Positions 3,600 through 42,220 of a stretch of 47,442 nucleotides of DNA are shown one piece after another. Position 1 is the first letter of the stretch; each line of letters begins with the position of its first letter. Source of the DNA: a virus (taxonomy: Duplodnaviria; Heunggongvirae; Uroviricota; Caudoviricetes); the IMG/VR virus record IMGVR_UViG_2909298281_000005; one strand, written 5' to 3'. The notes under the pieces are model-generated. The model was given only the letters and a program-made list of their open reading frames with translations. It did no database searches and was not told the DNA's origin. The position numbers and the translations under genes are program-made.

Positions 3600-6500
3600 T
3601 ATGCAAGCCTCACAATATAGTTAAATGCGATGTTTTTGACGGTGTTTTCCGCGTTACCAGCAGCGTTAACGGTGATGGTGTGTCCATGTGAACCAATCGC
3701 AACGGAGTGCGTGTGTGCACCAATACCGACAGTATGTGCGTGTGCACCTGCAGATGCTGCTGTGCCGGACAGTGAGTGGCTATGGTTACCATCTGTACTG
3801 GTATTAGCTAACGCCCCCGTAGACATACCTACTGAGCCTTGCACACCCCAGGTATTTTGACCTGAGCTTGTATAACCATATTGATAAGTATCTTTAAAAA
3901 CACTGGGGTTAAATCGACGGCCATCTCTATGGCTGTGATTACCAGCTGCATTCGTGCTGCCACTTAAACTATGGGTATGCGCACCAGTGTTATTCGTGGA
4001 TTTAGTGCCGTAATCAAACGACGATGTGGTTTTCGTCCCCAAATCAGTACTGGATGCGCTGGCGCTGTGGGTATGCGATTTTATGCCGTCCTGTTCCTGA
4101 GACAATACGGCACGACCACTGGCGGGCTTGCCCTTAATCGTCCAGCCACGCATATCAGGGATCACGCCTGACGGATAAGCGGCTGCAAGTTTCGGGTAGG
4201 CAGATTTGTCAAAAGTCTGCCCCTGCATCAGGGCATAACCAGACGGAACGGTATCTGATGGCCACGGGATTGGTGCGCCGACTGGGTAGCTTTCTGGTGG
4301 AAGATTTTTCGAGGTATAAACTTCTGCCCAGTCTTCCTCAAAACCATAACCGTCTCTTGAAGAACGGTAGAACAGACCACCATTTCTGTAATGCGCCTTC
4401 ATCTGCAAGGTCCGGCAACTTCCGACTCCGGTATAGAAGTTAACCAGAATATAGCTGTCGCCAGAGCGGGTGACATTATAAGCGCCTGATTCGGCATTCC
4501 AGGGAACGCCACCATCCGCATCGGCATATGTATCCGTTGCCCTTCTGGCAAAAGCAGCCACATGCGCGGCGGTTAAAGTAATATCTTTGGAACCATCAAA
4601 CTCAACACCAGAAACCCGTCTTGGCGTTTGCAGCTTTGTTGCTGTTAATGCATTACCGTTCAGACTTGCGGACAGTTTGGTTCCAATAACCAGTTCGCCG
4701 GTTGCGTTATCAATAGCAAACGGTCTTAATGTATTCCAGCCACCATAAACATCACCTTGATTGGTAAGCAGCAGGTAAGTTTTAGCGCCATCATTACGCC
4801 ATAATGCCCCATACTCCCCACCTATCATTCGAATCTGATTACCACCACGCGCTACAATTTCGTCTGTGGCAAAAAGTTTTTTGCACGACAAGTTATCGTT
4901 AACGATTAACGAATGAGACTCATAAAAACCACGCCCACTCTTAAAATCAAGGATAACGTCCGCCGCGATACATTCAGTCGCCGGATTTGTTGCCCCAAAC
5001 TTATAGGTCGTATCATTAACAACGAGATCAGTACCAGGTGCGGATATTGACAGGCCATCTTCGATAAACGCAAAAACAGGGAAAGCAGCGCCATCAACAT
5101 AGAACACAGAGCGCAAATCATCGCCCTTATTACTCATCATTATTGAGTGGATGGCTCGTTCATTGTTTTGATATTGCCAGAACATTCCATAAGCATAACG
5201 CCCCCTGTCAGTCCAGCCACCAGGCATAACAAATCCGTTAAACTCGCAGTTATTCATCGGATCGCCTGCGGTTCGCGTTGCCGTGGTGATAATGACCCTT
5301 GATGCCAGTTCGCTTACTGAGCCAGCAGAACGCATAACAACAACAGGGTAATATTTTCCAGATGTTGCACCTGCAGGAGCGTTAACCCGCACATAACGCA
5401 TACCACGCTTATCAGCAAAGTCTGTTTTACTGACCGCGTTAATGTTGTTCAGGAAGCGTCCCTTATCGGGTATATCAGCGCCGTTCTGGTCTTTCTGCAG
5501 ACGTTTCTCTGCATTGTCATAGGCTGATTTTACTGCCTTTGGCGTTGCCGCCAGCGTTTCAGACGTACTGTTGGTCGCACTGCTGAGCTGTACTATCCCC
5601 TTTTTCGTCGTACTTGCATCCTCAAGCGCCACGGCGGATGCAATATCCTCTGCCCGTTTTGCCGCTGTCTCGGCGCGCGTTGCCGCGGATTCCGCCGTAC
5701 TTTTGCTCTGTGCTGCCGCCGTCGCACTGCCAGCTGCCTCTGTCGCCTTCGTGGATGCTGTCGTGGCGCTGCCCTTCGCTGCGGACGCTTGTCTGGTCGC
5801 CTCATCTTTTGAAGCAGACGCCGATGATGCCGATGACGCCGCCGAACTGGCGGACGATGCGGCAGCCGTTTTTGAGGATTCTGCGCTGGTTTCCGACGCT
5901 TTCGCGTTCGTCTCGGATGTCTTCGCTGCGGAAGCAGACCTCGCTGCTGCGCTGGCCTGTTCAGTGGCTTCGCCAGCCTTCGTTGTGGCTGTTGAAGCAG
6001 ACGATGCGGCGCTTTCTGCCGATTTTCCGGCGGCGCTAGCACTGGCTGAGGCCTGCCCGGCACTTGTTGACGCTGCACTGGCAGACGACGCAGCCGCTGT
6101 TTTTGAGCCTGCCGCAGCCGAGGCGCTCTGTCCCGCTGCCGTTTCAGAAGACCTGGCGTTTGTCTCAGACGTCTTTGCCGCCTTCGCGGAATTGCCTGCC
6201 GCCGTTGCCGAGGAAGCGGCACTACTGGCGCTTGATGATGCGTTCGTTTCTGATGATTTCGCTGCCTCTTTTGAGGCCGCCGCATCCCGGGCTGAGGTGG
6301 CTGCTTCTGACGCCTTCGTGGTCGCGGCGGATGCAGAAGTGGCTGCTGATTGTTGTGACGCTGCCGCATTCGTTTCTGACGTTTTCGCCGCAGCGGCACT
6401 GGTAGCTGCCGCGCTTTTTGAGGACTCTGCAGCAGCAGCACTTTTCGATGCTTCACTGGCCTTTGTTGATGCCGTTCCTGCGCTGGAAGATGCTGACTGA

Positions 6501-26469: not shown

Positions 26470-27147
26470 ATGTCCATCATTTTTAATGGACACTATCGTA
26501 TGAAACACCGGACCTGGATCACTGAAGCTTTACGTCTTCACTTTGAAGAACATTTACCCCGGGTTGTGGCCGGGCGTCGCCTGGGTGTACCAAAATCAAC
26601 AGTTTGTAGTATGTTCGTGCGCTTTCGGAGAGCTGGCCTTTCGTGGCCTTTGCCCGCAGGCATGTCGGAGCAGGAACTTGATGCCTGCCTTTACGGACAA
26701 TTTTCCACGGTACCAGTCGTACGTCCTGAAAGCACCGTTATATCCGAAGCCCCCGTGGTAAAAAAACGTCCCCGGCGGCCCAACTTCCCTTATGAGTTTA
26801 AAATCGCCTTAGTGGAGCAGTCACTGCAGCCCGGAGCCTGTGTGGCGCAGATCGCCCGGGAAAACGGAATCAACGATAACCTGCTCTTCAACTGGCGCCA
26901 TCAATACCGGAAAGGTGGCCTGCTGCCTTCCGGAAAAAATATGCCGGCACTGCTTCCCGTGACGTTAACGCCGGAGCCGGATAATAAAATCCCGGCCCCC
27001 GCACAGGAACCAGAGCAGATAAATACACCGTCCGACAGTCTGTGTTGTGAGCTGGTTCTGCCGGCCGGAACTCTCAGGCTTAAAGGTAAACTGACGCCGG
27101 CGTTATTACAGACACTTATCCGCGAAATAAAAGGGAGCAGCCACTGA
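26470..27147 (+). CDS. IS66 accessory protein (orf1/TnpA-like); true start may be internal
   Basis: First ORF of the IS; HTH-like segments. Confidence 0.65.
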   Translation: MSIIFNGHYRMKHRTWITEALRLHFEEHLPRVVAGRRLGVPKSTVCSMFVRFRRAGLSWPLPAGMSEQELDACLYGQFSTVPVVRPESTVISEAPVVKKRPRRPNFPYEFKIALVEQSLQPGACVAQIARENGINDNLLFNWRHQYRKGGLLPSGKNMPALLPVTLTPEPDNKIPAPAQEPEQINTPSDSLCCELVLPAGTLRLKGKLTPALLQTLIREIKGSSH

Positions 27148-27494
27148 TGATATCTCTCCCTGCAGGTTCGCGTATCTGGCTGGTTGCAGGTATCACCGAT
27201 ATGCGAAATGGCTTTAACGGCCTGGCATCAAAAGTTCAGAACGTCCTGAAGGATGACCCGTTCTCCGGACACCTGTTCATCTTCCGCGGACGCCGGGGTG
27301 ACCAGATAAAAGTGTTGTGGGCTGACAGTGACGGACTGTGCCTCTTCACCAAACGCCTGGAGCGGGGCCGCTTCGTCTGGCCAGTCACCCGTGACGGCAA
27401 GGTGCACCTTACTCCGGCTCAGTTATCCATGCTTCTTGAAGGTATCAACTGGAAGCACCCGAAACGAACGGAACGCGCTGGAATCCGCATATAA
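27147..27494 (+). CDS. IS66 orf2 (TnpB-like)
   Basis: 115-aa ORF MISLPAGSRIWLVAGITDMRNGFNGL... typical of IS66 orf2. Confidence 0.85.
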   Translation: MISLPAGSRIWLVAGITDMRNGFNGLASKVQNVLKDDPFSGHLFIFRGRRGDQIKVLWADSDGLCLFTKRLERGRFVWPVTRDGKVHLTPAQLSMLLEGINWKHPKRTERAGIRI

Positions 27495-27513
27495 CCCGTT
27501 GTAAAGTGAGGAT

Positions 27514-29085
27514 ATGGACACCTCACTTGCTCATGAGAACGCCCGCCTGCGGGCACTGTTGCAGACGCAACAGGACACCATCCGCCAGATGGCTGAATAC
27601 AACCGCCTGCTCTCACAGCGGGTGGCGGCTTATGCTTCCGAAATCAACCGGCTGAAGGCGCTGGTTGCGAAACTGCAACGTATGCAGTTCGGTAAAAGCT
27701 CAGAAAAACTTCGTGCAAAAACCGAACGACAGATACAGGAAGCACAGGAGCGAATCAGCGCACTTCAGGAAGAAATGGCGGAAACGCTGGGTGAGCAATA
27801 TGACCCGGTACTGCCATCCGCCCTGCGCCAGTCTTCAGCCCGTAAACCGTTACCGGCCTCACTTCCCCGTGAAACCCGGGTTATCCGGCCGGAAGAGGAA
27901 TGCTGTCCTGCCTGTGGTGGTGAACTCAGTTCTCTGGGATGTGATGTGTCAGAGCAACTGGAGCTTATCAGCAGCGCCTTTAAGGTTATCGAAACACAAC
28001 GTCCGAAACTGGCCTGTTGCCGGTGCGACCATATCGTGCAGGCACCAGTACCTTCAAAACCCATTGCACGCAGTTATGCCGGAGCGGGGCTTCTTGCCCA
28101 TGTTGTCAGCGGGAAATATGCAGACCATCTGCCGTTATACCGCCAGTCAGAAATATACCGTCGTCAGGGAGTGGAGCTGAGCCGTGCCACACTGGGGCGC
28201 TGGACAGGTGCTGTTGCTGAACTGCTGGAGCCGCTGTATGACGTCCTGCGCCAGTATGTGCTGATGCCCGGTAAAGTCCATGCTGATGATATCCCCGTCC
28301 CGGTCCAGGAGCCGGGCAGCGGTAAAACCCGGACAGCCCGGCTGTGGGTCTACGTCCGTGATGACCGTAACGCCGGTTCACAGATGCCCCCGGCGGTCTG
28401 GTTCGCGTACAGTCCGGACCGGAAAGGTATCCATCCACAAAATCACCTGGCCGGTTACAGCGGTGTGCTTCAGGCCGATGCTTACGGTGGTTACCGGGCG
28501 TTATACGAATCCGGCAGAATAACGGAAGCCGCGTGTATGGCTCATGCCCGGAGAAAAATCCACGATGTGCATGCAAGAGCGCCCACCTACATCACCACGG
28601 AAGCCCTGCAGCGTATCGGTGAACTGTATGCCATCGAGGCAGAGGTCCGGGGCTGTTCAGCAGAACAGCGTCTGGCGGCAAGAAAAGCCAGAGCCGCGCC
28701 ACTGATGCAGTCACTGTATGACTGGATACAGCAACAGATGAAAACACTGTCGCGTCACTCAGATACGGCAAAAGCGTTCGCATACCTGCTGAAACAGTGG
28801 GATGCACTGAACGTGTACTGCAGTAATGGCTGGGTGGAAATCGACAACAACATCGCAGAGAACGCCTTACGGGGAGTGGCCGTAGGCCGGAAAAACTGGA
28901 TGTTCGCGGGTTCCGACAGCGGTGGTGAACATGCGGCGGTGTTGTACTCGCTGATCGGCACATGCCGTCTGAACAATGTGGAGCCAGAAAAGTGGCTGCG
29001 TTACGTCATTGAACATATCCAGGACTGGCCGGCAAACCGGGTACGCGATCTGTTGCCCTGGAAAGTTGATCTGAGCTCTCAGTAA
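27514..29085 (+). CDS. IS66 family transposase (orf3)
   Basis: 523-aa ORF with N-terminal coiled-coil, CPACGG zinc-finger-like motif and DDE-type core. Confidence 0.9.
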
Positions 29086-29448: not shown

Positions 29449-30141
29449 ATGTCTAGAGAAGGCTCGTTGGACTTATTGCAAGAAGTTGAAGAAAGTCTTG
29501 GCATAATGAGACAGACACAGCATATCAAGCCTGTAAAAGTCAAAGCTATTTTGGAAAACTTACGAAGTTCCTTAGAGTATCTCGCTAATGATACCTATGA
29601 TAAATATATTTCTCCACGCAGTAATGATGAGCGCCCCAAAATATATTTCCCTTACGGAAAAAAAGAGTTTATTGATAAATTTTTCTCAAAGACGCTAAAA
29701 ATAAACCCACCATCATCTTCTCCATTATATAAAATTTTTACTTCTATACAGGATTATCACACTGGCGAATCTTGGTTGGAAATGATGTGTAATCTCACTA
29801 ATGAAGTAAAGCACAGACAACCAATCCCCTTAAGAGAAGAGAGTTCTGTTAAAGACCTAAGTGTGAGCGTAGATGGTTTTGGTTTAATCACAGCAGGAAG
29901 CTCAGCAAAAATTCTCTTTAAAAACAACCACATCAATGACAAAAAATTAGAAGACTTTACTTTCGAAAATGGGAAATTACAAAGAAGTGGTAATGGTGTA
30001 CCTTTAAACATAGTCATTACCGAAGAGAAAAAAATAAGATTCCATGGGAATGACCATGAAGTAATTCCTTTCATTGAATCATGCCTTATTAAAATCAGAA
30101 TTTTTATTATCGAAGCCTATAATGAGTTAGATAAGATTTGA
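29449..30141 (+). CDS. hypothetical protein, AT-rich orphan gene opposite to the late operon
   Basis: 230-aa ORF with AAGGAG 8 nt upstream of ATG and AT-rich promoter-like upstream region; no recognisable domain or TM segment. Confidence 0.6.
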   Translation: MSREGSLDLLQEVEESLGIMRQTQHIKPVKVKAILENLRSSLEYLANDTYDKYISPRSNDERPKIYFPYGKKEFIDKFFSKTLKINPPSSSPLYKIFTSIQDYHTGESWLEMMCNLTNEVKHRQPIPLREESSVKDLSVSVDGFGLITAGSSAKILFKNNHINDKKLEDFTFENGKLQRSGNGVPLNIVITEEKKIRFHGNDHEVIPFIESCLIKIRIFIIEAYNELDKI

Positions 30142-30309
30142 ATTACCCCCTAAACACCACAGCAAGTGGGAATTAACCACCCTATATTAAATATCCCTTT
30201 GTGAATGTGTTAAAGCTTATCGTCACAAAGGGATGCCCATTATTAATCTCACTAGGCAATGAATTTCTAATATTAAATTTCATCGCCAGATTTTAAATTT
30301 CCTGCAACC

Positions 30310-30846
30310 TTACTGGCCATGCTCAGATGGTCTGTAACGCAACTCATCAATTTCACGAATACTCGAAAAATTATTATTTCCTTTTTCTATCAACGCCAGT
30401 AGCGGCTTAATCCACAAGACAGCTTGGCAGTAGGTCATTGAGCTGGTGGTAGCGGTACGATCATAGGCTTCATTAGGTCTGCCGGTATCGGTGTGCATGG
30501 CGCTGGCACGTAAACGGTACGTGTATTCGAGCAACCCACCAGCGATATCAGCAGGAACAGGCAGATCACAGGTTTTTTCACGGCGGAGAATCTCCCGGTA
30601 TTCGATTACGGTTTTTTCGGTGCTGGTGTCGATCAGGGAGTTAAGACTGTTGGCATGTTCTGCAACCTGATTGAATCGATTGAAGTTGAATGCCTGGGTG
30701 GCGATTACCTGCCCCAGCATAGAGTTGTCACTTCGCAGAACGTCGTTATCGCTCTGAAGATTACTGGCGTGAGAGCAACTCTTGACGAGAGCGACCGAAA
30801 GGCCAGCAATAACGACAACGCCTATAAGATCCGGATTAATTTTCAT
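30310..30846 (-). CDS. Rz-like spanin (putative i-spanin)
   Basis: ORF starting at ATG overlapping the endolysin stop (ATGA), N-terminal TM segment; position after endolysin. Confidence 0.45.
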   Translation of the reverse strand: MKINPDLIGVVVIAGLSVALVKSCSHASNLQSDNDVLRSDNSMLGQVIATQAFNFNRFNQVAEHANSLNSLIDTSTEKTVIEYREILRREKTCDLPVPADIAGGLLEYTYRLRASAMHTDTGRPNEAYDRTATTSSMTYCQAVLWIKPLLALIEKGNNNFSSIREIDELRYRPSEHGQ

Positions 30847-34516: not shown

Positions 34517-34593
34517 TGGCGCGCTGTACTGGATTCGAACCAGTGACCGATTGCTTAGAAGGCAATTGCTCTGTCCGGCTGAGCTAACAACGC
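34517..34593 (-). tRNA. tRNA-Arg (anticodon UCU)
   Basis: Cloverleaf readable: acceptor GCGTTGT/ACAGCGC, anticodon loop CTTCTAA, T-arm GGTTCGAATCC, 3-prime CCA encoded. Confidence 0.8.
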
Positions 34594-34627
34594 TGAATAC
34601 CGATAATGGACCGCCATCGGGGACCCG

Positions 34628-34640
34628 CCCCCCCCCCCCC
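34628..34640. repeat. homopolymer tract, about 13 C on plus strand (G on the phage coding strand) between the two tRNA genes
   Basis: Read directly from sequence and from the poly-Pro run in the overlapping antisense track ORF. Confidence 0.7.
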
Positions 34641-34701
34641 GCACCAACAACCCTGTTATCGTGTCGTCTGCTCTTCCTGATAAGCTCATGGCGGTTTGTG
34701 A

Positions 34702-34777
34702 TGGTGGCCCTTGCTGGATTTGAACCAGCGACCTGGCGATTATGAGTCGCTCGCTCTCACCACTGAGCTAAAGGACC
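34702..34777 (-). tRNA. tRNA with anticodon CAU (Ile2/lysidine type or Met), ileX/ileZ-like
   Basis: Acceptor GGTCCTT/AAGGGCC, anticodon loop CTCATAA, T-arm GGTTCAAATCC, 3-prime CCA encoded; resembles E. coli ileX as recalled. Confidence 0.75.
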
Positions 34778-37989: not shown

Positions 37990-38145
37990 TTACTCCTCAG
38001 GTTCGTAAGCTGTGAAGACAGCGACCTCCGTCTGGCCGGTTCGGATTCGTACCTCGCAGAGGTCTTTCCTCGTTACCAGTGCCGTCACTATGACGGTTAA
38101 ACAGATGACGATCAGGGCGATTAGCATCGCCTTTTGCTGCTTCAT
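37990..38145 (-). CDS. hokD: Hok family toxin HokD-like (51 aa)
   Basis: MKQQKAMLIALIVICLTVIVTALVTRKDLCEVRIRTGQTEVAVFTAYEPEE; track ORF has an in-frame 19-codon upstream extension. Confidence 0.8.
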   Translation of the reverse strand: MKQQKAMLIALIVICLTVIVTALVTRKDLCEVRIRTGQTEVAVFTAYEPEE

Positions 38146-38887
38146 AGCCTGCTTCTCCTTGCCTTTCGGCACGTAAGAGGCTAACCTACGTGTGTAGAGC
38201 ATAGATATGGCCTCAGATTAATGTTAAGCGTCTTGCCGGACGCGTAATGTTAACTGGGGCTTTTCTCTATCTGCCTTTGGTGTTGATGCCCGAGGCAGAT
38301 AGCCTCAAGCACCCGCAGCAATTCTACTTAACTACCGTTACCTCGCCAATATGAAATCAATCAGAAAGGTGATCCATAAGAACAACAGCAAGACAATAAA
38401 TTGCCATTACAGCAGCAATAGCCAGCGCACATTTGAGAACCAGCACCACAACCTCCTGTATTGGACGTACACCAGTCCTGATAAATATGAGGCTGTCTCG
38501 TCAGTGATTCAATACAACTACTGGGTATAGTTTCTATGATTTTGTTCTGTGGAAATGGAAAACAGCAACCAGTCACCACCAGCACTTCTTTAAACATGCC
38601 AAGTCACACGCAAGCCAACATTATAGTTCCCTTTGAGCGAGCAGATGAAGCTAGCAAAAATATTGATCACTTAGGATGCATTACTAACGTTGCTATGTGT
38701 TAACGAACAGGGAGTGGGTCATCAGCATAAATATTTATGCAGTAGGTTTCTTTTAGGACTAAATTAATCAAAAACATTTAGATAAAATTATAAAATCAAG
38801 AAATTGGTGGCAATTAATCTTTAATTGTGCCAGCTGAATTTCGTTATTATAGAAGATTAGCTTTTTTTTGAATGTTTGGAGAGTAAA

Positions 38888-39582
38888 ATGTTAGAACCAC
38901 CAAAGAGTTATAATGAAATGTTGCCTATGCTCCATAAGGCGACTTTTATTACTACATTTATATTTTACCTATCATTAGTCATTTATGGCTACATGCCATT
39001 GGTTGGCATTAATGCCAAGTATATCCCCCCGTTAAAGACTACGAGGAATTTATTAAATGGATATTAACCTTTGGCATATTACCAATTGCATCTTCAGTTT
39101 TTTGGTCAGTAATTAGTGGAGCTTTAGATCTACATAATAATGTAGCAAAAATTATTGGAATAAGGAAGATGTGGGATAGTCATTTAATTATTAAACCATT
39201 AGCAAAAATTGCAGGCGTTACGAGAAAATTAACTACTGATGAATCTCACAAGGTAATGAGTAAACTGTATTACCCAGAAGTTAAAGAGTTAAAAGACAAA
39301 CATTACGTTGAACTTTTCTGGAACAAAGTTTATTACTTTTGGGTTTTCTTTGAACATACAGTAATCGCATTTGTTACTATTTTAATAATAAGTATCGCCA
39401 AATTAACAAATATATTCTCTGTTACTGGCTCTTTAATTAATCTTTGGTTGTGGATTATTTCTCTTGTCGCATTTGACTTCCTTATTTTCATAGCATCAGT
39501 TAAACCAAGAACAGAAAGCCAAGTAAGACAAATACCTGATAGCAAAATAAAAGAATTCTTTAACAATAACAATATTTTTTAA
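38888..39582 (+). CDS. predicted 4-TM membrane protein, reading frame broken at a C6 run (39025-39030); appears as two track ORFs
   Basis: Track ORFs 38876..39067 and 39169..39582 are in adjacent frames; the second frame is open and hydrophobic from 39013; adding one C restores about 231 aa; GGAGAG upstream of ATG 38888. Confidence 0.5.
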
Positions 39583-39594
39583 ACGAGGTTGATT

Positions 39595-40248
39595 TTGAAT
39601 TACAAAATAAATGGAATAAACATACGTTCAGAAAATGCAGCGAAACCGCACACTATGCCATCTAACTATCTCTGTAAACAGATTGAAAGCACTAATAAAA
39701 ATGGCAATGCCCTTGATTTTGGATGTGGAAAACTTAGATATTCAGAACAATTAGTAAATAAATTTGAAACTGTGACATTTTTAGATTCCAGAAGACAACT
39801 AGAAAGAGTGCAAATTATCAGAGGTGTACAAACCACGATTCCAGATTACGTGATAAATAACTATAAGAATGCTAATATTGTTTCTTATGAAAATATAGAT
39901 AAAATAACAAATCATTATGATTTCATACTTTGCGCAAACGTGCTTTCCGCAATTCCATGTGAATCCACAATTCACAAAGTCCTCAGTGCGATTAGAGAAT
40001 TATTAAAGAGTGATGGTGAAGCACTGATTGTCAATCAATACAAAAGTTCTTATTTCAAGAGGTACGAGAGCGGTATTAAACATTTGCATGGGTATATATA
40101 CCAAAACTCTCGTAATGCTTTCTACTATGGTTTATTAGATGTGGATACTGTAAGTAAAATATGCTCAGATAATAATTTAGAAATAATAAAATCATGGAGC
40201 AAAGCAGGTAGTTCATATGTGGTTGTTGGTAAACATATACATATTTAG
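39595..40248 (+). CDS. class I SAM-dependent methyltransferase (substrate unknown)
   Basis: Motif I-like LDFGCGKLRYS near N-terminus, downstream acidic/hydrophobic motifs; starts 7-13 nt after membrane protein stop with GAGG upstream; no DNA-MTase DPPY/NPPY motif seen. Confidence 0.6.
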   Translation: MNYKINGINIRSENAAKPHTMPSNYLCKQIESTNKNGNALDFGCGKLRYSEQLVNKFETVTFLDSRRQLERVQIIRGVQTTIPDYVINNYKNANIVSYENIDKITNHYDFILCANVLSAIPCESTIHKVLSAIRELLKSDGEALIVNQYKSSYFKRYESGIKHLHGYIYQNSRNAFYYGLLDVDTVSKICSDNNLEIIKSWSKAGSSYVVVGKHIHI

Positions 40249-40562
40249 TTTATTTCAACAAATTATTAGAAAGAGTGATTTGCTTGTTAATTATTAGCTC
40301 GGCAGTGCCGGATCAACATGACCCTGCCACTTAGGCCATTGCCGGTTTACCTACTTTTGTAAGGTTCAGCATGAAGTTTTTATATACTCTTCCTAATATC
40401 AATAGTGATGCTCGCTTATGTTAGCTGCTTCTTGTACATAGTAGCCTTCTCCGACAGTACTGCAATGAGCGGAGAGTAAAAGTCGATAAACAATAAGGAG
40501 GTTCACAATAAATATTTCTCGGTGAAACTTTCAAAGCATTCTCTGTTTTGCTAAATCGACAA

Positions 40563-41545
40563 TTATAAATCAACAACATTTAGTGTTATATCAATATTAT
40601 TTAGCCTTGCAATCTCTGATGAATCACTTGCTATTTTAGCTTTTAATTTATCAATATTAATCATATCTTCATGGCTTATATAAACCATATCACCTTGGTT
40701 AACTTTAGATTTGTTCACTATGGCTTGAATAACAGACAAATCATCCATTACACCTCTCATAAATTTCACCATGCTTTGATCTTTGAAGTCAGATATCGAT
40801 TTTGAACGTTGCTTACGTTGAATTGTTCCATTACACCTCTCATAAATTTCACCATGCTTTGATCTTTGAAGTCAGATATCGATTTTGAACGTTGCTTACG
40901 TTGAATTGTTCCTTTTGTAATTACTTCATTAATTTCTTTTAAACCAGTGAGCATATCAGACAGACTGCCTTCGCAACTCATCCGATGTTTTATTGCATTG
41001 CGATTAATAATATTGAGTATAATTTCGAGTGAATCTTTATCACTCCATGGATGTAATGATGTATAATCATGATGGCGTCGAATGGCGTCAATCATATCCT
41101 GGACCATATCTTCATCTGCTTTATCGCAAAGTTCATTCACGAAATAGCTGGGGTCGATTATTTTACAATAACTTGGAGTTAGGTATCTTGAGGCTTTACA
41201 AAAACCAAAAATATATAAAGTAGAGTATTTATCTTTCAGACTCTCTCCTATTTCATTTGCTTCCTCAAAAGATTCGATAGTTTTTTTAATTTTTGCTGGA
41301 CTTGCATTCGTAGTAACTTGAACTGCTATCATGTTTTTATTATCAGCTAAATCAATGGCGGGAAAATTAACTTTAATCTGATTCATGTTTACCAGTTCAC
41401 CCATTTTCAGCGCGCGAAACATAAAGATGGTCAATGACTCAATTATTCTTTCCATGTCATGAAAGCCTGCCTGTTTGCGTTGCGCGATATAAAGCTGGAG
41501 TAGTGCAATATCACTCTGTAAGTTTCTAATAAGTGGATCAATCAT
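40563..41545 (-). pseudogene. defence-island-like protein (about 300 aa) disrupted by an 83-bp tandem duplication
   Basis: Track ORFs 40766..41545 and 40563..40772 share the duplicated peptide MVKFMRGVM...; N-terminal motif ...NQIKVNFPAIDLADNKNMIAVQVTT... Confidence 0.55.
40745..40912. repeat. perfect tandem duplication, 2 x 83 bp
   Basis: Unit CCATTACACCTCTCATAAATTTCACCATGCTTTGATCTTTGAAGTCAGATATCGATTTTGAACGTTGCTTACGTTGAATTGTT appears twice head-to-tail. Confidence 0.85.
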
Positions 41546-41797
41546 AGCTAATAATCCTTTTCAATGAAGCTGGAGGTGTATTTAACTATTAGTTAAATTT
41601 CTATTTTTATAGAAACAAGCTTTACAACTTCATCAAAGTTTCTCAAATCCTAATCCACTTTGCAAATCCACTAACCATGCTGAATGCTTTCTGTTGTTAA
41701 ACATATCCGCTGCTGGCACCAAGCAGACAAACACACTAACTCTACCCTACTCCACAAAAGAGCCAATCAATATCTGAACTAATAAACTTTAATCTCA

Positions 41798-42220
41798 TCA
41801 CTTCAATAAATATCGAGCATTTCCCTGATAGAATGCTAGTATGCGCTGCATAACTTCACTCTTCCGGCACTCGCGACAGATTATGTTCTGACGCCTGTCG
41901 TAGCGACGTATTTCTCCGTCAGGTAATGACCAGATAAGGTCCGGATCAACCGCAGATGGTTCCTTCAGCTTTGCCCTTGAGAGCTTTTTACGGGCATTTT
42001 GCCAGTCCTTACGCGCCTGTTCAGACGGGAATAACCCGTAACCAGAGTTGTATACATCGCCGCTGGCAACCAGCTCTCTTGCGAGAACGCTCATCAGATA
42101 TCTTGTCGCACCTGTCTTGACTTCCAGTTGCCGTAACGTCTCACGACCGCTCTGGCGCACGAGTTCCACCACCTGCCCTTTAATTTTTTCCCGCTCTTCT
42201 TGTGTAAAAACTTTTGCCAC
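41798..42220 (-). CDS. hypothetical protein in replication module (P position)
   Basis: 140-aa ORF downstream of O-like gene; HTH-like segment; no confident family. Confidence 0.4.
   Translation of the reverse strand: MAKVFTQEEREKIKGQVVELVRQSGRETLRQLEVKTGATRYLMSVLARELVASGDVYNSGYGLFPSEQARKDWQNARKKLSRAKLKEPSAVDPDLIWSLPDGEIRRYDRRQNIICRECRKSEVMQRILAFYQGNARYLLK

What the first reader, a model, noticed from the sequence alone, without database searches (positions are those of the whole stretch)
38210..41790. Low-GC cargo island between hokD and the replication genes: membrane protein plus SAM-methyltransferase operon and a convergent defence-like gene
The stretch is visibly AT-rich relative to flanking phage genes. 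On the plus strand (antisense to early-right transcription) a predicted 4-TM protein is followed 7-13 nt later by a class I SAM-dependent methyltransferase. Convergent with them is an about 300-aa protein whose N-terminus (...NFPAIDLADNKNMIAVQVTT...) recalls the N-terminal modules of proteins found in defence islands (SMEK-like, from memory and low confidence). Placement, composition and the convergent architecture fit a horizontally acquired accessory or defence system, but the combination is not one I can name.
Basis: inference. Interest (0 to 1): 0.65.

Follow-up and report, generated by a model that had tools for sequence, protein, structure and literature searches.

The report
Broken two-module anti-phage prophage island
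A low-GC cargo slot in an E. coli Qin-like prophage holds two separable anti-phage modules, a relative of the recently described YmfE ('Kunado') membrane defence protein with its always-linked methyltransferase and a stand-alone SMEK/Mrr-type nuclease, and both defence genes are mutationally broken in this genome.

Summary
A 3,050-bp island (38645-41694) has 32% GC against 51% for the rest of the window. It lies between hok/sok and the DUF977/replication genes of a Qin-like prophage. It carries a 4-TM protein gene, a class I SAM methyltransferase gene 12 nt downstream, and a convergent gene whose SMEK_N match is strong (NCBIfam E 6.5e-31).

The membrane/methyltransferase pair is homologous to E. 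coli K-12 e14 YmfE/YmfD (60% and 68% identity). A September 2026 preprint names YmfE 'Kunado' and reports that it defends against T5-like phages after adsorption. It does not mention ymfD.

My main addition is that the YmfE-like and YmfD-like genes are adjacent in nearly every informative locus, from Escherichia to distant metagenomic lineages, with gene order swapped in three. The SMEK gene belongs to a roughly 300-aa Mrr-like nuclease family found alone in defence islands, and it separates from the pair.

So the island is two stacked modules, not one system and not a restriction-modification pair. In this window the ymfE-like gene is frameshifted (C6, intact C7) and the SMEK gene carries a perfect 83-bp tandem duplication. 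Intact copies occur in 151 of 5,426 complete E. coli genomes.

Verdict: a new member of a known kind, of moderate interest.

The parts
38140..38314 (-). hok/sok regulatory RNA region (the hokD CDS is 37990-38145). This is left flank, not cargo.
   Evidence: Rfam RF01794 sok, 114 bits against a gathering score of 59, E 2.7e-26. hokD is annotated in the matching RefSeq locus.
38645..41694 (.). Variable low-GC cargo island in the hokD / DUF977 slot of a Qin-like lambdoid prophage.
   Evidence: Homology with phage Tritos stops at 38644 and resumes at 41695, and Tritos carries a different 444-aa ORF there. GC is 0.324 against 0.506.
38888..39582 (+). ymfE-like (Kunado-family) 4-TM inner-membrane protein gene. 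It is a pseudogene here; the intact form is 231 aa (WP_000892866).
   Evidence: 60% identity to K-12 YmfE, E 3e-108. Four TM segments. Repair with C7 restores the frame.
39025..39030 (+). C6 homopolymer that frameshifts the ymfE-like gene (intact alleles have C7).
   Evidence: 20 of 20 other loci have C7. The 137-aa truncated product is on record on 72 contigs.
39595..40248 (+). ymfD-like class I SAM-dependent methyltransferase (217 aa), intact. It is the constant partner of the ymfE-like gene.
   Evidence: 68% identity to K-12 YmfD, E 2e-113. Pfam Methyltransf_12/23. Adjacent to YmfE-like genes in almost all loci examined.
40563..41545 (-). SMEK_N (Mrr-like PD-(D/E)XK) plus helical C-terminal domain protein gene. 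It is a pseudogene here; the intact form is 299 aa (WP_000566845).
   Evidence: NF033859 E 6.5e-31 and PF21941 E 1.6e-22. Family profile against the Kordia jejudonensis Mrr domain (PDB 26bh), E 2.5e-12. AF2 model pLDDT 85.
40744..40909 (.). Perfect 83-bp tandem duplication (2 x 83) with a 3-nt TCC microhomology. It shifts the SMEK reading frame and truncates the product to 259 aa.
   Evidence: The 18 comparison loci with this allele that include the site each have one copy. The duplication is present in three assemblies.
41798..42220 (-). DUF977 gene, the right flank of the slot, followed by replication and immunity genes.
   Evidence: PF06163 E 1.7e-30; RefSeq annotation.

Best explanation
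The island is a stack of two independent, horizontally acquired anti-phage modules. They sit in a variable cargo slot between hok/sok and the DUF977/replication genes of a Qin-like prophage.

Module 1 (38722-40334) is an orthologue-level relative of the e14 ymfE-ymfD operon.
- Its first gene encodes a 4-TM inner-membrane protein. By homology to YmfE ('Kunado'), I infer that it blocks T5-like phages after adsorption, possibly at DNA entry.
- Its second gene encodes a small-molecule-type class I SAM methyltransferase. I infer this enzyme is a functional partner of the membrane protein, acting at the membrane or on the partner itself. It is not a DNA-modification enzyme.

Module 2 (about 40400-41720) is a single-gene candidate defence protein. 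It has an N-terminal Mrr-like PD-(D/E)XK nuclease (SMEK_N) fused to a conserved helical domain that may act as a sensor or regulator. I infer that it cuts nucleic acid when triggered.

The 32%-GC DNA is the kind of target H-NS silences, as reported for the e14 lit/ymfE locus (inference).

In this genome (identical to CP024252.1) module 1 is disabled by a C7-to-C6 frameshift in the membrane-protein gene. Module 2 is disabled by an 83-bp tandem duplication. Only the methyltransferase ORF is intact.
For: Shown here.
- The membrane protein and the methyltransferase match K-12 YmfE and YmfD at 60% and 68% identity over their full lengths.
- The pair is adjacent and co-oriented in every informative locus: 45 of 46 loci from E. 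coli, Enterobacter, Pseudomonas and viral contigs, the one exception ending at a contig edge.
- The same holds for the Vibrio cholerae, Marinobacter and Microbulbifer loci reached from the methyltransferase side.
- It also holds in 22 of 24 metagenomic loci of a YmfE-like subfamily only about 15-23% identical to a nearer YmfE-like protein (P0312). Gene order is swapped in three of these.
- The contexts are phage accessory slots and defence islands. Examples are e14 next to lit, downstream of ogr in a P2-like prophage, and next to ABC-ATPase three-gene systems and a C5-methyltransferase cluster in Pseudomonas.
- The SMEK gene is a full-length member of a family of at least 108 clusters, about 300 aa long, across Proteobacteria. 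It stands alone beside other defence genes.
- Residues E36, D65, Q76, T78 and K85 are invariant in the family alignment.
- The two modules separate in both directions at similar divergence: L038, L040 and L041 against L118.

From the literature.
- YmfE has anti-T5-like activity, does not block adsorption and is silenced by H-NS (bioRxiv 10.64898/2026.09.05.749240).
- SMEK-APAZ with a short pAgo forms a nuclease complex (PMC10810196, PMC12205087).

Breakage is documented.
Against: - No experiment exists on this allele, which is only 60% identical to YmfE, so its phage range could differ.
- The preprint reports that cloned ymfE alone protects. It lists only lit and ymfE as hits among e14 Keio deletions. 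The methyltransferase is therefore not needed for that phenotype, and its role is purely inferred from linkage.
- The stand-alone SMEK family has never been tested. Its motif reads D...Q-x-T...K rather than the canonical D...(D/E)xK, so catalytic competence is not assured.
- The three genes travel as one block at 83-88% nucleotide identity in at least three other phage contexts. Some functional interplay therefore cannot be excluded.
- The C6 run could be a homopolymer sequencing error in a long-read assembly rather than a real mutation.
Confidence: 0.7

Rival explanations
1. The three genes form one system. The membrane protein, the methyltransferase and the SMEK nuclease would work together, for example as membrane sensor, modifier and nuclease effector.
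For: The whole three-gene block (38722-41724) recurs at 83-88% nucleotide identity with the same convergent layout in at least three other phage contexts: after tail-fibre genes (L034), beside the J-like gene (L036) and beside a Rha-like gene (L039, L044).
Against: - At the same divergence the pair occurs without SMEK (L038, L040, L041) and SMEK occurs without the pair (L118).
- Outside enterobacterial phages the two never co-occur: e14, P2-like prophage, Pseudomonas, Vibrio, Marinobacter and metagenome loci on one side, and the Pseudomonas, Citrobacter and Vibrio SMEK loci on the other.
- Cloned ymfE alone is reported to be active.
Confidence: 0.1
2. The island is a restriction-modification pair. 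The methyltransferase would modify host DNA, and the convergent Mrr-like nuclease would restrict unmodified DNA.
Against: - The methyltransferase matches only small-molecule or protein-type class I families: Methyltransf_12/23/11/25, TehB and UbiG-like.
- It has no (D/N/S)PP(Y/F/W) motif and no C5 PCQ/ENV motifs (read directly from the sequence and alignment).
- Its constant partner is the membrane protein, not the nuclease.
- The nuclease family occurs widely without any such methyltransferase.
Confidence: 0.03
3. The membrane-protein/methyltransferase pair is a small-molecule detoxification or metabolic moron, analogous to TehA/TehB, rather than a defence system.
For: Pfam TehB scores 24.4 bits against a cut-off of 20.4. 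JGI names many homologues as quinol methylases. One locus is a Vibrio cholerae gene cassette flanked by toxin-antitoxin pairs and small accessory genes.
Against: - The NCBIfam TehB equivalog models are far from met: 28-29 bits against cut-offs of 218-303.
- The membrane protein has four TM segments, no Pfam, NCBIfam, PHROG or PADLOC family, and no solved structural relative.
- YmfE is reported to have anti-phage activity.
- The neighbourhoods elsewhere are defence islands.
Confidence: 0.07
4. The poly-C tract is a phase-variation switch that turns the ymfE-like defence gene on and off. On this reading the C6 state is regulatory, not decay.
For: - A sister assembly with the same 83-bp duplication still has C7 (L064), so the C6 change is recent.
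- The truncated 137-aa product is on record on 72 contigs.
Against: - Seven C residues is a short tract.
- All 20 comparison loci with this allele, 18 of them IMG/VR viral contigs, have C7, and no C6 or C8 allele was found in IMG/VR.
- Homopolymer errors in long-read assemblies could produce the same picture.
- The tract is not conserved in e14 ymfE, where the aligned residues read YVPPIK, or in more distant homologues.
Confidence: 0.1

Closest known systems
E. coli K-12 e14 prophage ymfE-ymfD operon. YmfE is 'Kunado' (bioRxiv 10.64898/2026.09.05.749240).
   Same: - Full-length homology at 60% and 68% identity.
- The same two-gene order with close spacing.
- The same 4-TM architecture.
- AT-rich prophage cargo placed next to another defence gene (lit in e14, the SMEK gene here).
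   Different: - It sits in a different prophage and slot (Qin-like hokD/DUF977 rather than the e14 int/icd end).
- At 40% sequence divergence its phage range is unknown.
- The membrane-protein gene is frameshifted here.
- The published work treats YmfE as a single-protein system and does not address the methyltransferase.
SMEK/Mrr-APAZ effector of short prokaryotic Argonaute systems (Kordia jejudonensis KjAgo; PDB 26bh Mrr domain).
   Same: The N-terminal domain is homologous (family profile E 2.5e-12) and shares the NFPAIDLAD...Q-x-T...K motifs.
   Different: - There is no APAZ domain and no Argonaute gene nearby.
- The protein is 299 aa with its own conserved helical C-terminal domain.
- It occurs as a stand-alone gene.
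Mrr-like / type IV restriction nucleases and other single-gene PD-(D/E)XK defence proteins.
   Different: - No recognisable DNA-binding or modification-reading domain.
- The active-site motif is a variant.
- No function has been tested.
Phage-encoded superinfection-exclusion membrane proteins (for example HK97 gp15, P22 SieA, T4 Imm).
   Same: A prophage-encoded inner-membrane protein proposed to act after adsorption.
   Different: - None of those proteins has an obligatory methyltransferase partner (from general knowledge, not tested here).

Membership tests
YmfE / Kunado family | Full-length sequence homology to E. coli K-12 YmfE. | tested here: met
YmfE / Kunado family | Four-TM helical membrane architecture. 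| tested here: met
   Kyte-Doolittle segments at about 20-41, 58-80, 148-170 and 181-208. AF2 model pLDDT 86.7, pTM 0.80, all-helical.
YmfE / Kunado family | Adjacent co-oriented YmfD-type methyltransferase (a feature I propose from the linkage data). | tested here: met
   12-nt gap in the window. Linkage in 45 of 46, 3 of 3 and 22 of 24 loci.
YmfE / Kunado family | Intact open reading frame. | tested here: not met
   A C6 frameshift splits the gene into 63-aa and 137-aa ORFs. This may be a homopolymer sequencing error.
YmfE / Kunado family | Protection against T5-like phages after adsorption. | not testable with these tools
   Known only for K-12 YmfE, from the preprint.
SMEK_N domain proteins (NF033859 / PF21941) | HMM score above the curated cut-off. 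| tested here: met
   106.1 bits against 30 (NCBIfam) and 80.3 bits against 27 (Pfam).
SMEK_N domain proteins (NF033859 / PF21941) | Conserved putative active-site residues (E36, D65, Q76, T78, K85). | tested here: met
   Invariant in a 35-sequence alignment and present in the window copy. The same motifs are in the Kordia Mrr domain.
SMEK_N domain proteins (NF033859 / PF21941) | Nuclease activity. | not testable with these tools
   Reported only for the Kordia SMEK-APAZ/pAgo complex.
Short pAgo nuclease systems (SPARDA-type, SMEK-APAZ plus pAgo) | APAZ domain fused to the nuclease. | tested here: not met
   The PADLOC Aga_REase-PNTD1-PNTD2 match covers only model positions 9-143 of 463. The C-terminal 180 aa has no family match and no informative fold match.
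Short pAgo nuclease systems (SPARDA-type, SMEK-APAZ plus pAgo) | Adjacent Argonaute (MID-PIWI) gene. | tested here: not met
   No such gene is in the island or in any of the homologue neighbourhoods.
Type II restriction-modification | DNA methyltransferase catalytic motifs. | tested here: not met
   Only Methyltransf_12/23/11/25, TehB and UbiG-like matches. No (D/N/S)PP(Y/F/W) motif in the sequence or family alignment.
Type II restriction-modification | Obligate co-occurrence of methyltransferase and nuclease. | tested here: not met
   The two are separable in both directions.
TehA/TehB tellurite resistance | TehB equivalog-level match and a TehA partner. | tested here: not met
   NCBIfam TehB 28-29 bits against cut-offs of 218-303. 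The partner has no TehA or other family match.
hok/sok type I toxin-antitoxin (left flank only) | Rfam sok model above the gathering score, next to a Hok CDS. | tested here: met
   114 bits against 59 at 38140-38314. hokD is annotated in the matching RefSeq locus.

The most novel reading that the evidence does not exclude
The YmfD-type methyltransferase is an integral, mechanistically new part of the Kunado defence. On this reading the system is a two-protein membrane machine in which a non-DNA, small-molecule-type SAM methyltransferase modifies a membrane lipid or quinone, the membrane partner, or an incoming phage component. That modification would gate or extend the block to phage genome entry. 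It would be the first anti-phage system built on such an enzyme. The linkage seen here, kept across very distant lineages and through gene-order swaps, is what makes this reading plausible. The published single-gene phenotype is what limits it.
Probability: 0.25. Interest if true: 0.75.

Novelty: new member of a known kind. Interest (0 to 1): 0.5.

Why it matters
It shows that this cargo slot of Qin-like prophages is a defence hotspot, and it gives names to two of the three genes.

It also yields a testable point that the only experimental report did not address. The just-described Kunado (YmfE) protein comes with a dedicated SAM methyltransferase almost everywhere it occurs, so the system is probably a two-gene unit with an unusual enzymology.

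It flags a widespread, untested family of roughly 300-aa SMEK/Mrr-like nucleases as a candidate single-gene defence system.

For this particular genome the practical message is the opposite. Both defence genes are mutationally inactivated, so the island is a decaying remnant here.

Tried and rejected
- **Restriction-modification reading.** Rejected on methyltransferase motifs and on linkage.
- **pAgo-associated reading of the SMEK gene.** Rejected because there is no APAZ domain and no Argonaute gene.
- **Neighbours of the Pseudomonas SMEK gene.** I tested whether its 219-aa and 232-aa SLATT_5 neighbours were hidden YmfD and YmfE relatives. BLASTP found no similarity.
- **Family searches for the YmfE-like protein.** Pfam, NCBIfam, PHROGs and PADLOC returned nothing.
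- **Sequence searches of the methyltransferase against PDB.** Single sequence and profile returned only generic matches.
- **Non-coding features in the island.** Rfam and the promoter/terminator scans found nothing beyond sok; promoter-like sites were fewer than in shuffles.
- **Poly-C alleles.** Scans for C6 or C8 alleles in IMG/VR found none.
- **Failed or uninformative calls.** One look-up of a distant YmfE-like protein landed on a 1.25-kb contig. The first attempt to scan metagenomes failed because the alignment was too divergent.
- **Literature.** Searches for stand-alone SMEK proteins found no functional study.
Full report
**1. The observation**

The window is a lambdoid prophage whose early-right genes lie on the minus strand. 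RefSeq annotation of a near-identical locus lists cro, a YdaT-family gene, a replication-organiser-like gene, DUF977, then hokD, rem, DUF968, rusA and an antiterminator. DicB and ydfA-D lie beyond the repressor, so this is a Qin-like element.

Sliding GC falls from about 0.49-0.51 to 0.30-0.35 between roughly 38.6 and 41.7 kb. I measured GC on the limits set in section 2. The island (38645-41694) has GC 0.324 against 0.506 for the rest of the window. The lowest of 383 other windows of the same length is 0.391.

- A + strand gene for a hydrophobic protein.
- A + strand methyltransferase gene. Its likely TTG start at 39595 lies 12 nt after the upstream stop and is preceded by GAGG.
- A convergent minus-strand gene.

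Two of the genes are broken.
- The first is split into 63-aa and 137-aa ORFs at a C6 run (39025-39030).
- The third carries a perfect 83-bp tandem duplication (40744-40826 and 40827-40909). This shifts the frame and ends the product at 259 aa.

Adding one C and removing one repeat unit restores ORFs of 231 and 299 aa. These repairs match real alleles.
- Of 5,426 complete E. coli genomes, 151 carry the island. The 30 best-listed span 3,499 bp, which equals 3,581 - 83 + 1.
- Twenty other fetched loci with this allele all have C7, and the 18 that include the site have a single unit.

**2. Limits of the island**

The first 105 nt of the stated range belong to the hok/sok leader (Rfam sok, 114 bits, 38140-38314).

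Phage Tritos shares the flanks up to 38644 and again from 41695. In between it carries a different 444-aa ORF. The cargo region is therefore 38645-41694, and the slot is variable.

Comparison with other loci splits the cargo into two homology blocks.
- 38722-40334 holds the two + strand genes.
- About 40403-41724 holds the minus-strand gene.

**3. The membrane protein and methyltransferase are a ymfE-ymfD cassette**

The membrane protein has no Pfam, NCBIfam, PHROG or PADLOC family. A word-index homology search found only 39 clusters.

One relative at 60% identity lay in an E. coli element next to an integrase, a 297-aa HExxH protein and icd. That is the layout of e14. The K-12 record confirmed this, with the gene order icd, ymfD, ymfE, lit, intE.
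- The repaired window protein is 60% identical to YmfE (E 3e-108).
- The methyltransferase is 68% identical to YmfD (E 2e-113).

A preprint dated 11 September 2026 (bioRxiv 10.64898/2026.09.05.749240) reports the following.
- Deleting hns in BW25113 and MG1655 unmasks defence against T5-like phages that depends on ymfE.
- Plasmid-borne ymfE under its own promoter reproduces the defence.
- Phages that use different receptors are affected.
- Adsorption is not blocked.

The authors propose a superinfection-exclusion-like block of DNA entry and name the protein Kunado. ymfD is not mentioned in that text. Among Keio deletions of e14 genes, only lit and ymfE are listed as hits.

A 2025 paper found that a ymfD knockout grows normally and is not the sole source of mRNA m6A (PMC12096079).

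**4. The pair is tightly linked (new here)**

Every locus with enough sequence downstream of a YmfE-like gene has a YmfD-like gene next to it on the same strand.
- 45 of 46 loci from E. coli, Enterobacter, Pseudomonas (35-40% identity) and IMG/VR contigs show this. The one exception ends at a contig edge.
- Starting from the methyltransferase side, homologues at 43-45% identity in Vibrio cholerae, Microbulbifer and Marinobacter each have an unannotated 209-232-aa gene just upstream. Each of these matches the YmfE profile, at E 1e-70, 1e-15 and 1e-77 respectively.
- An exhaustive profile search found 218 representatives at 50% identity, nearly all 220-250 aa.
- For a distant subfamily, only about 15-23% identical to a nearer YmfE-like protein (P0312), 22 of 24 metagenomic loci carry a YmfD-family gene (E 1e-12 to 1e-98) directly adjacent. 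The genes often overlap by a few bases. In three loci the order is reversed. Of the other two loci, one is too short to tell.

Linkage kept across this distance and through order swaps is the signature of a functional pair.

The enzyme is a distinct class I lineage with conserved IRSENAAKP, LDFGCGKLRYS, NVLSAIPC and NQ(H/Y)(R/K)SSYFK motifs. It matches only generic small-molecule or protein methyltransferases. It has no DNA-methyltransferase motifs.

The AF2 model of the membrane protein is confident (pLDDT 86.7, pTM 0.80) and all-helical with four long hydrophobic helices. It has no solved structural relative.

The contexts are accessory slots and defence islands.
- e14 beside lit.
- Downstream of ogr in a P2-like prophage.
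- Between tail genes of another P2-like phage.
- A relaxase and reverse-transcriptase element.
- Pseudomonas islands with ABC-ATPase three-gene systems or a C5-methyltransferase cluster.
- A V. cholerae cassette array.

**5. The convergent gene**

The domain is homologous to the Mrr nuclease domain of the Kordia jejudonensis Argonaute-associated protein in PDB 26bh. The single sequence gives E 2.4e-7 and the family profile E 2.5e-12. The NFPAIDLAD...Q-x-T...K motifs are shared.

That protein, with its short pAgo, is reported to be a guide-dependent nuclease complex (PMC10810196, PMC12205087).

Here there is no APAZ domain and no Argonaute. The PADLOC match covers only the nuclease part.

The 299-aa architecture is itself a family of at least 108 clusters across Gamma- and Betaproteobacteria and beyond, conserved over its whole length. 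Invariant residues occur in the nuclease half (E36, D65, Q76, T78, K85) and in the helical C-terminal half (R182, E192, G193, K221 and others).

Neighbourhoods differ from place to place and look defensive.
- An ABC-ATPase three-gene system and an AAA_15/21 ATPase pair in Citrobacter.
- An Abi_alpha gene in a two-gene Vibrio islet.
- A SLATT_5 protein in Pseudomonas.
- A phage tail-region slot in L118.

I found no functional study of the stand-alone family.

**6. One system or two**

The three-gene block recurs at 83-88% nucleotide identity with the same layout in other phage contexts. It can therefore move as a unit.

At the same divergence, though, the pair occurs alone (L038, L040, L041) and the SMEK gene occurs alone (L118). 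Outside enterobacterial phages they never co-occur.

I conclude they are two modules that are often stacked, as defence genes commonly are. A restriction-modification reading fails on the methyltransferase motifs and on linkage.

**7. State in this genome**

A 6.8-kb stretch of CP024252.1 is an exact substring of the window.

The 83-bp duplication is present in three assemblies. One of them (NQYK01000012.1) still has C7 and an intact 231-aa gene, so the duplication came first.

The 137-aa truncated product is on record on 72 contigs. No C6 or C8 allele is in IMG/VR. The C6 call could be real slippage or a homopolymer sequencing error.

**8. Verdict**

The defence interpretation is supported by homology and context, but the island is two modules and not one system.

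It is a new member of a known, only recently described kind (Kunado/YmfE), plus a member of an untested SMEK-nuclease family. Both are inactivated here.

The most interesting product of the analysis is the near-universal YmfE-YmfD linkage.

Noticed in passing
window 26470-29085 (+), and 29449-30141 (+): An IS66-family element lies in the region between the late structural genes and the lysis genes. It comprises an HTH_Tnp_1 protein of 225 aa and a DDE_Tnp_IS66 transposase of 523 aa. A 230-aa ORF with no Pfam match follows in a low-GC patch (GC 0.37 at 30000-30499).
   Followed up: partly
window 38315-38644: This stretch next to hok/sok is conserved at 94% in phages Tritos, Evi and mEp460 but is unannotated there and in RefSeq. 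It holds overlapping ORFs of 59 aa (+) and 78 aa (-, cysteine-rich). Its function is unknown.
   Followed up: no
L062 (phage Tritos OV696610.1) 4238-5572: The same hokD/DUF977 slot holds an unrelated 444-aa hypothetical protein gene, also antisense to early-right transcription. The slot therefore behaves as a cargo hotspot.
   Followed up: partly
L085, L087, L090 (metagenome contigs): In these distant relatives the YmfD-type methyltransferase gene lies upstream of the YmfE-like gene instead of downstream. Adjacency is kept through a gene-order swap.
   Followed up: yes
L057 (Vibrio cholerae ABJTFC010000021.1) 4318-5651: A YmfE-like/YmfD-like pair sits among ParDE and Phd/ParE toxin-antitoxin cassettes and small accessory genes. 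This looks like the superintegron cassette array (recognised from memory, not tested).
   Followed up: partly
L118 7059-8381 (-): Here the SMEK gene occurs without the ymfE/ymfD pair. It is convergent with a 440-aa protein whose N-terminus (KYQVFLSSTYTDLVEERE) resembles DUF4062-type defence proteins. That resemblance is from memory and was not tested with an HMM.
   Followed up: no
L002 9058-9960 (-): In the Enterobacter P2-like prophage that carries the pair after ogr, a 300-aa protein with no Pfam match sits next to the CI repressor. It is unrelated to the SMEK protein and may be another cargo gene.
   Followed up: no
window 39025-39030; protein P0282: The truncated 137-aa product of the frameshifted ymfE-like gene is recorded on 72 contigs. 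This could reflect recurrent slippage at the C7 tract or homopolymer sequencing errors.
   Followed up: partly
window 34517-34777 (-): Two prophage tRNA genes lie upstream of the antiterminator region: tRNA-Arg(tct) and a CAT-anticodon tRNA. ARAGORN calls the second Met, while RefSeq annotates it as Ile.
   Followed up: no
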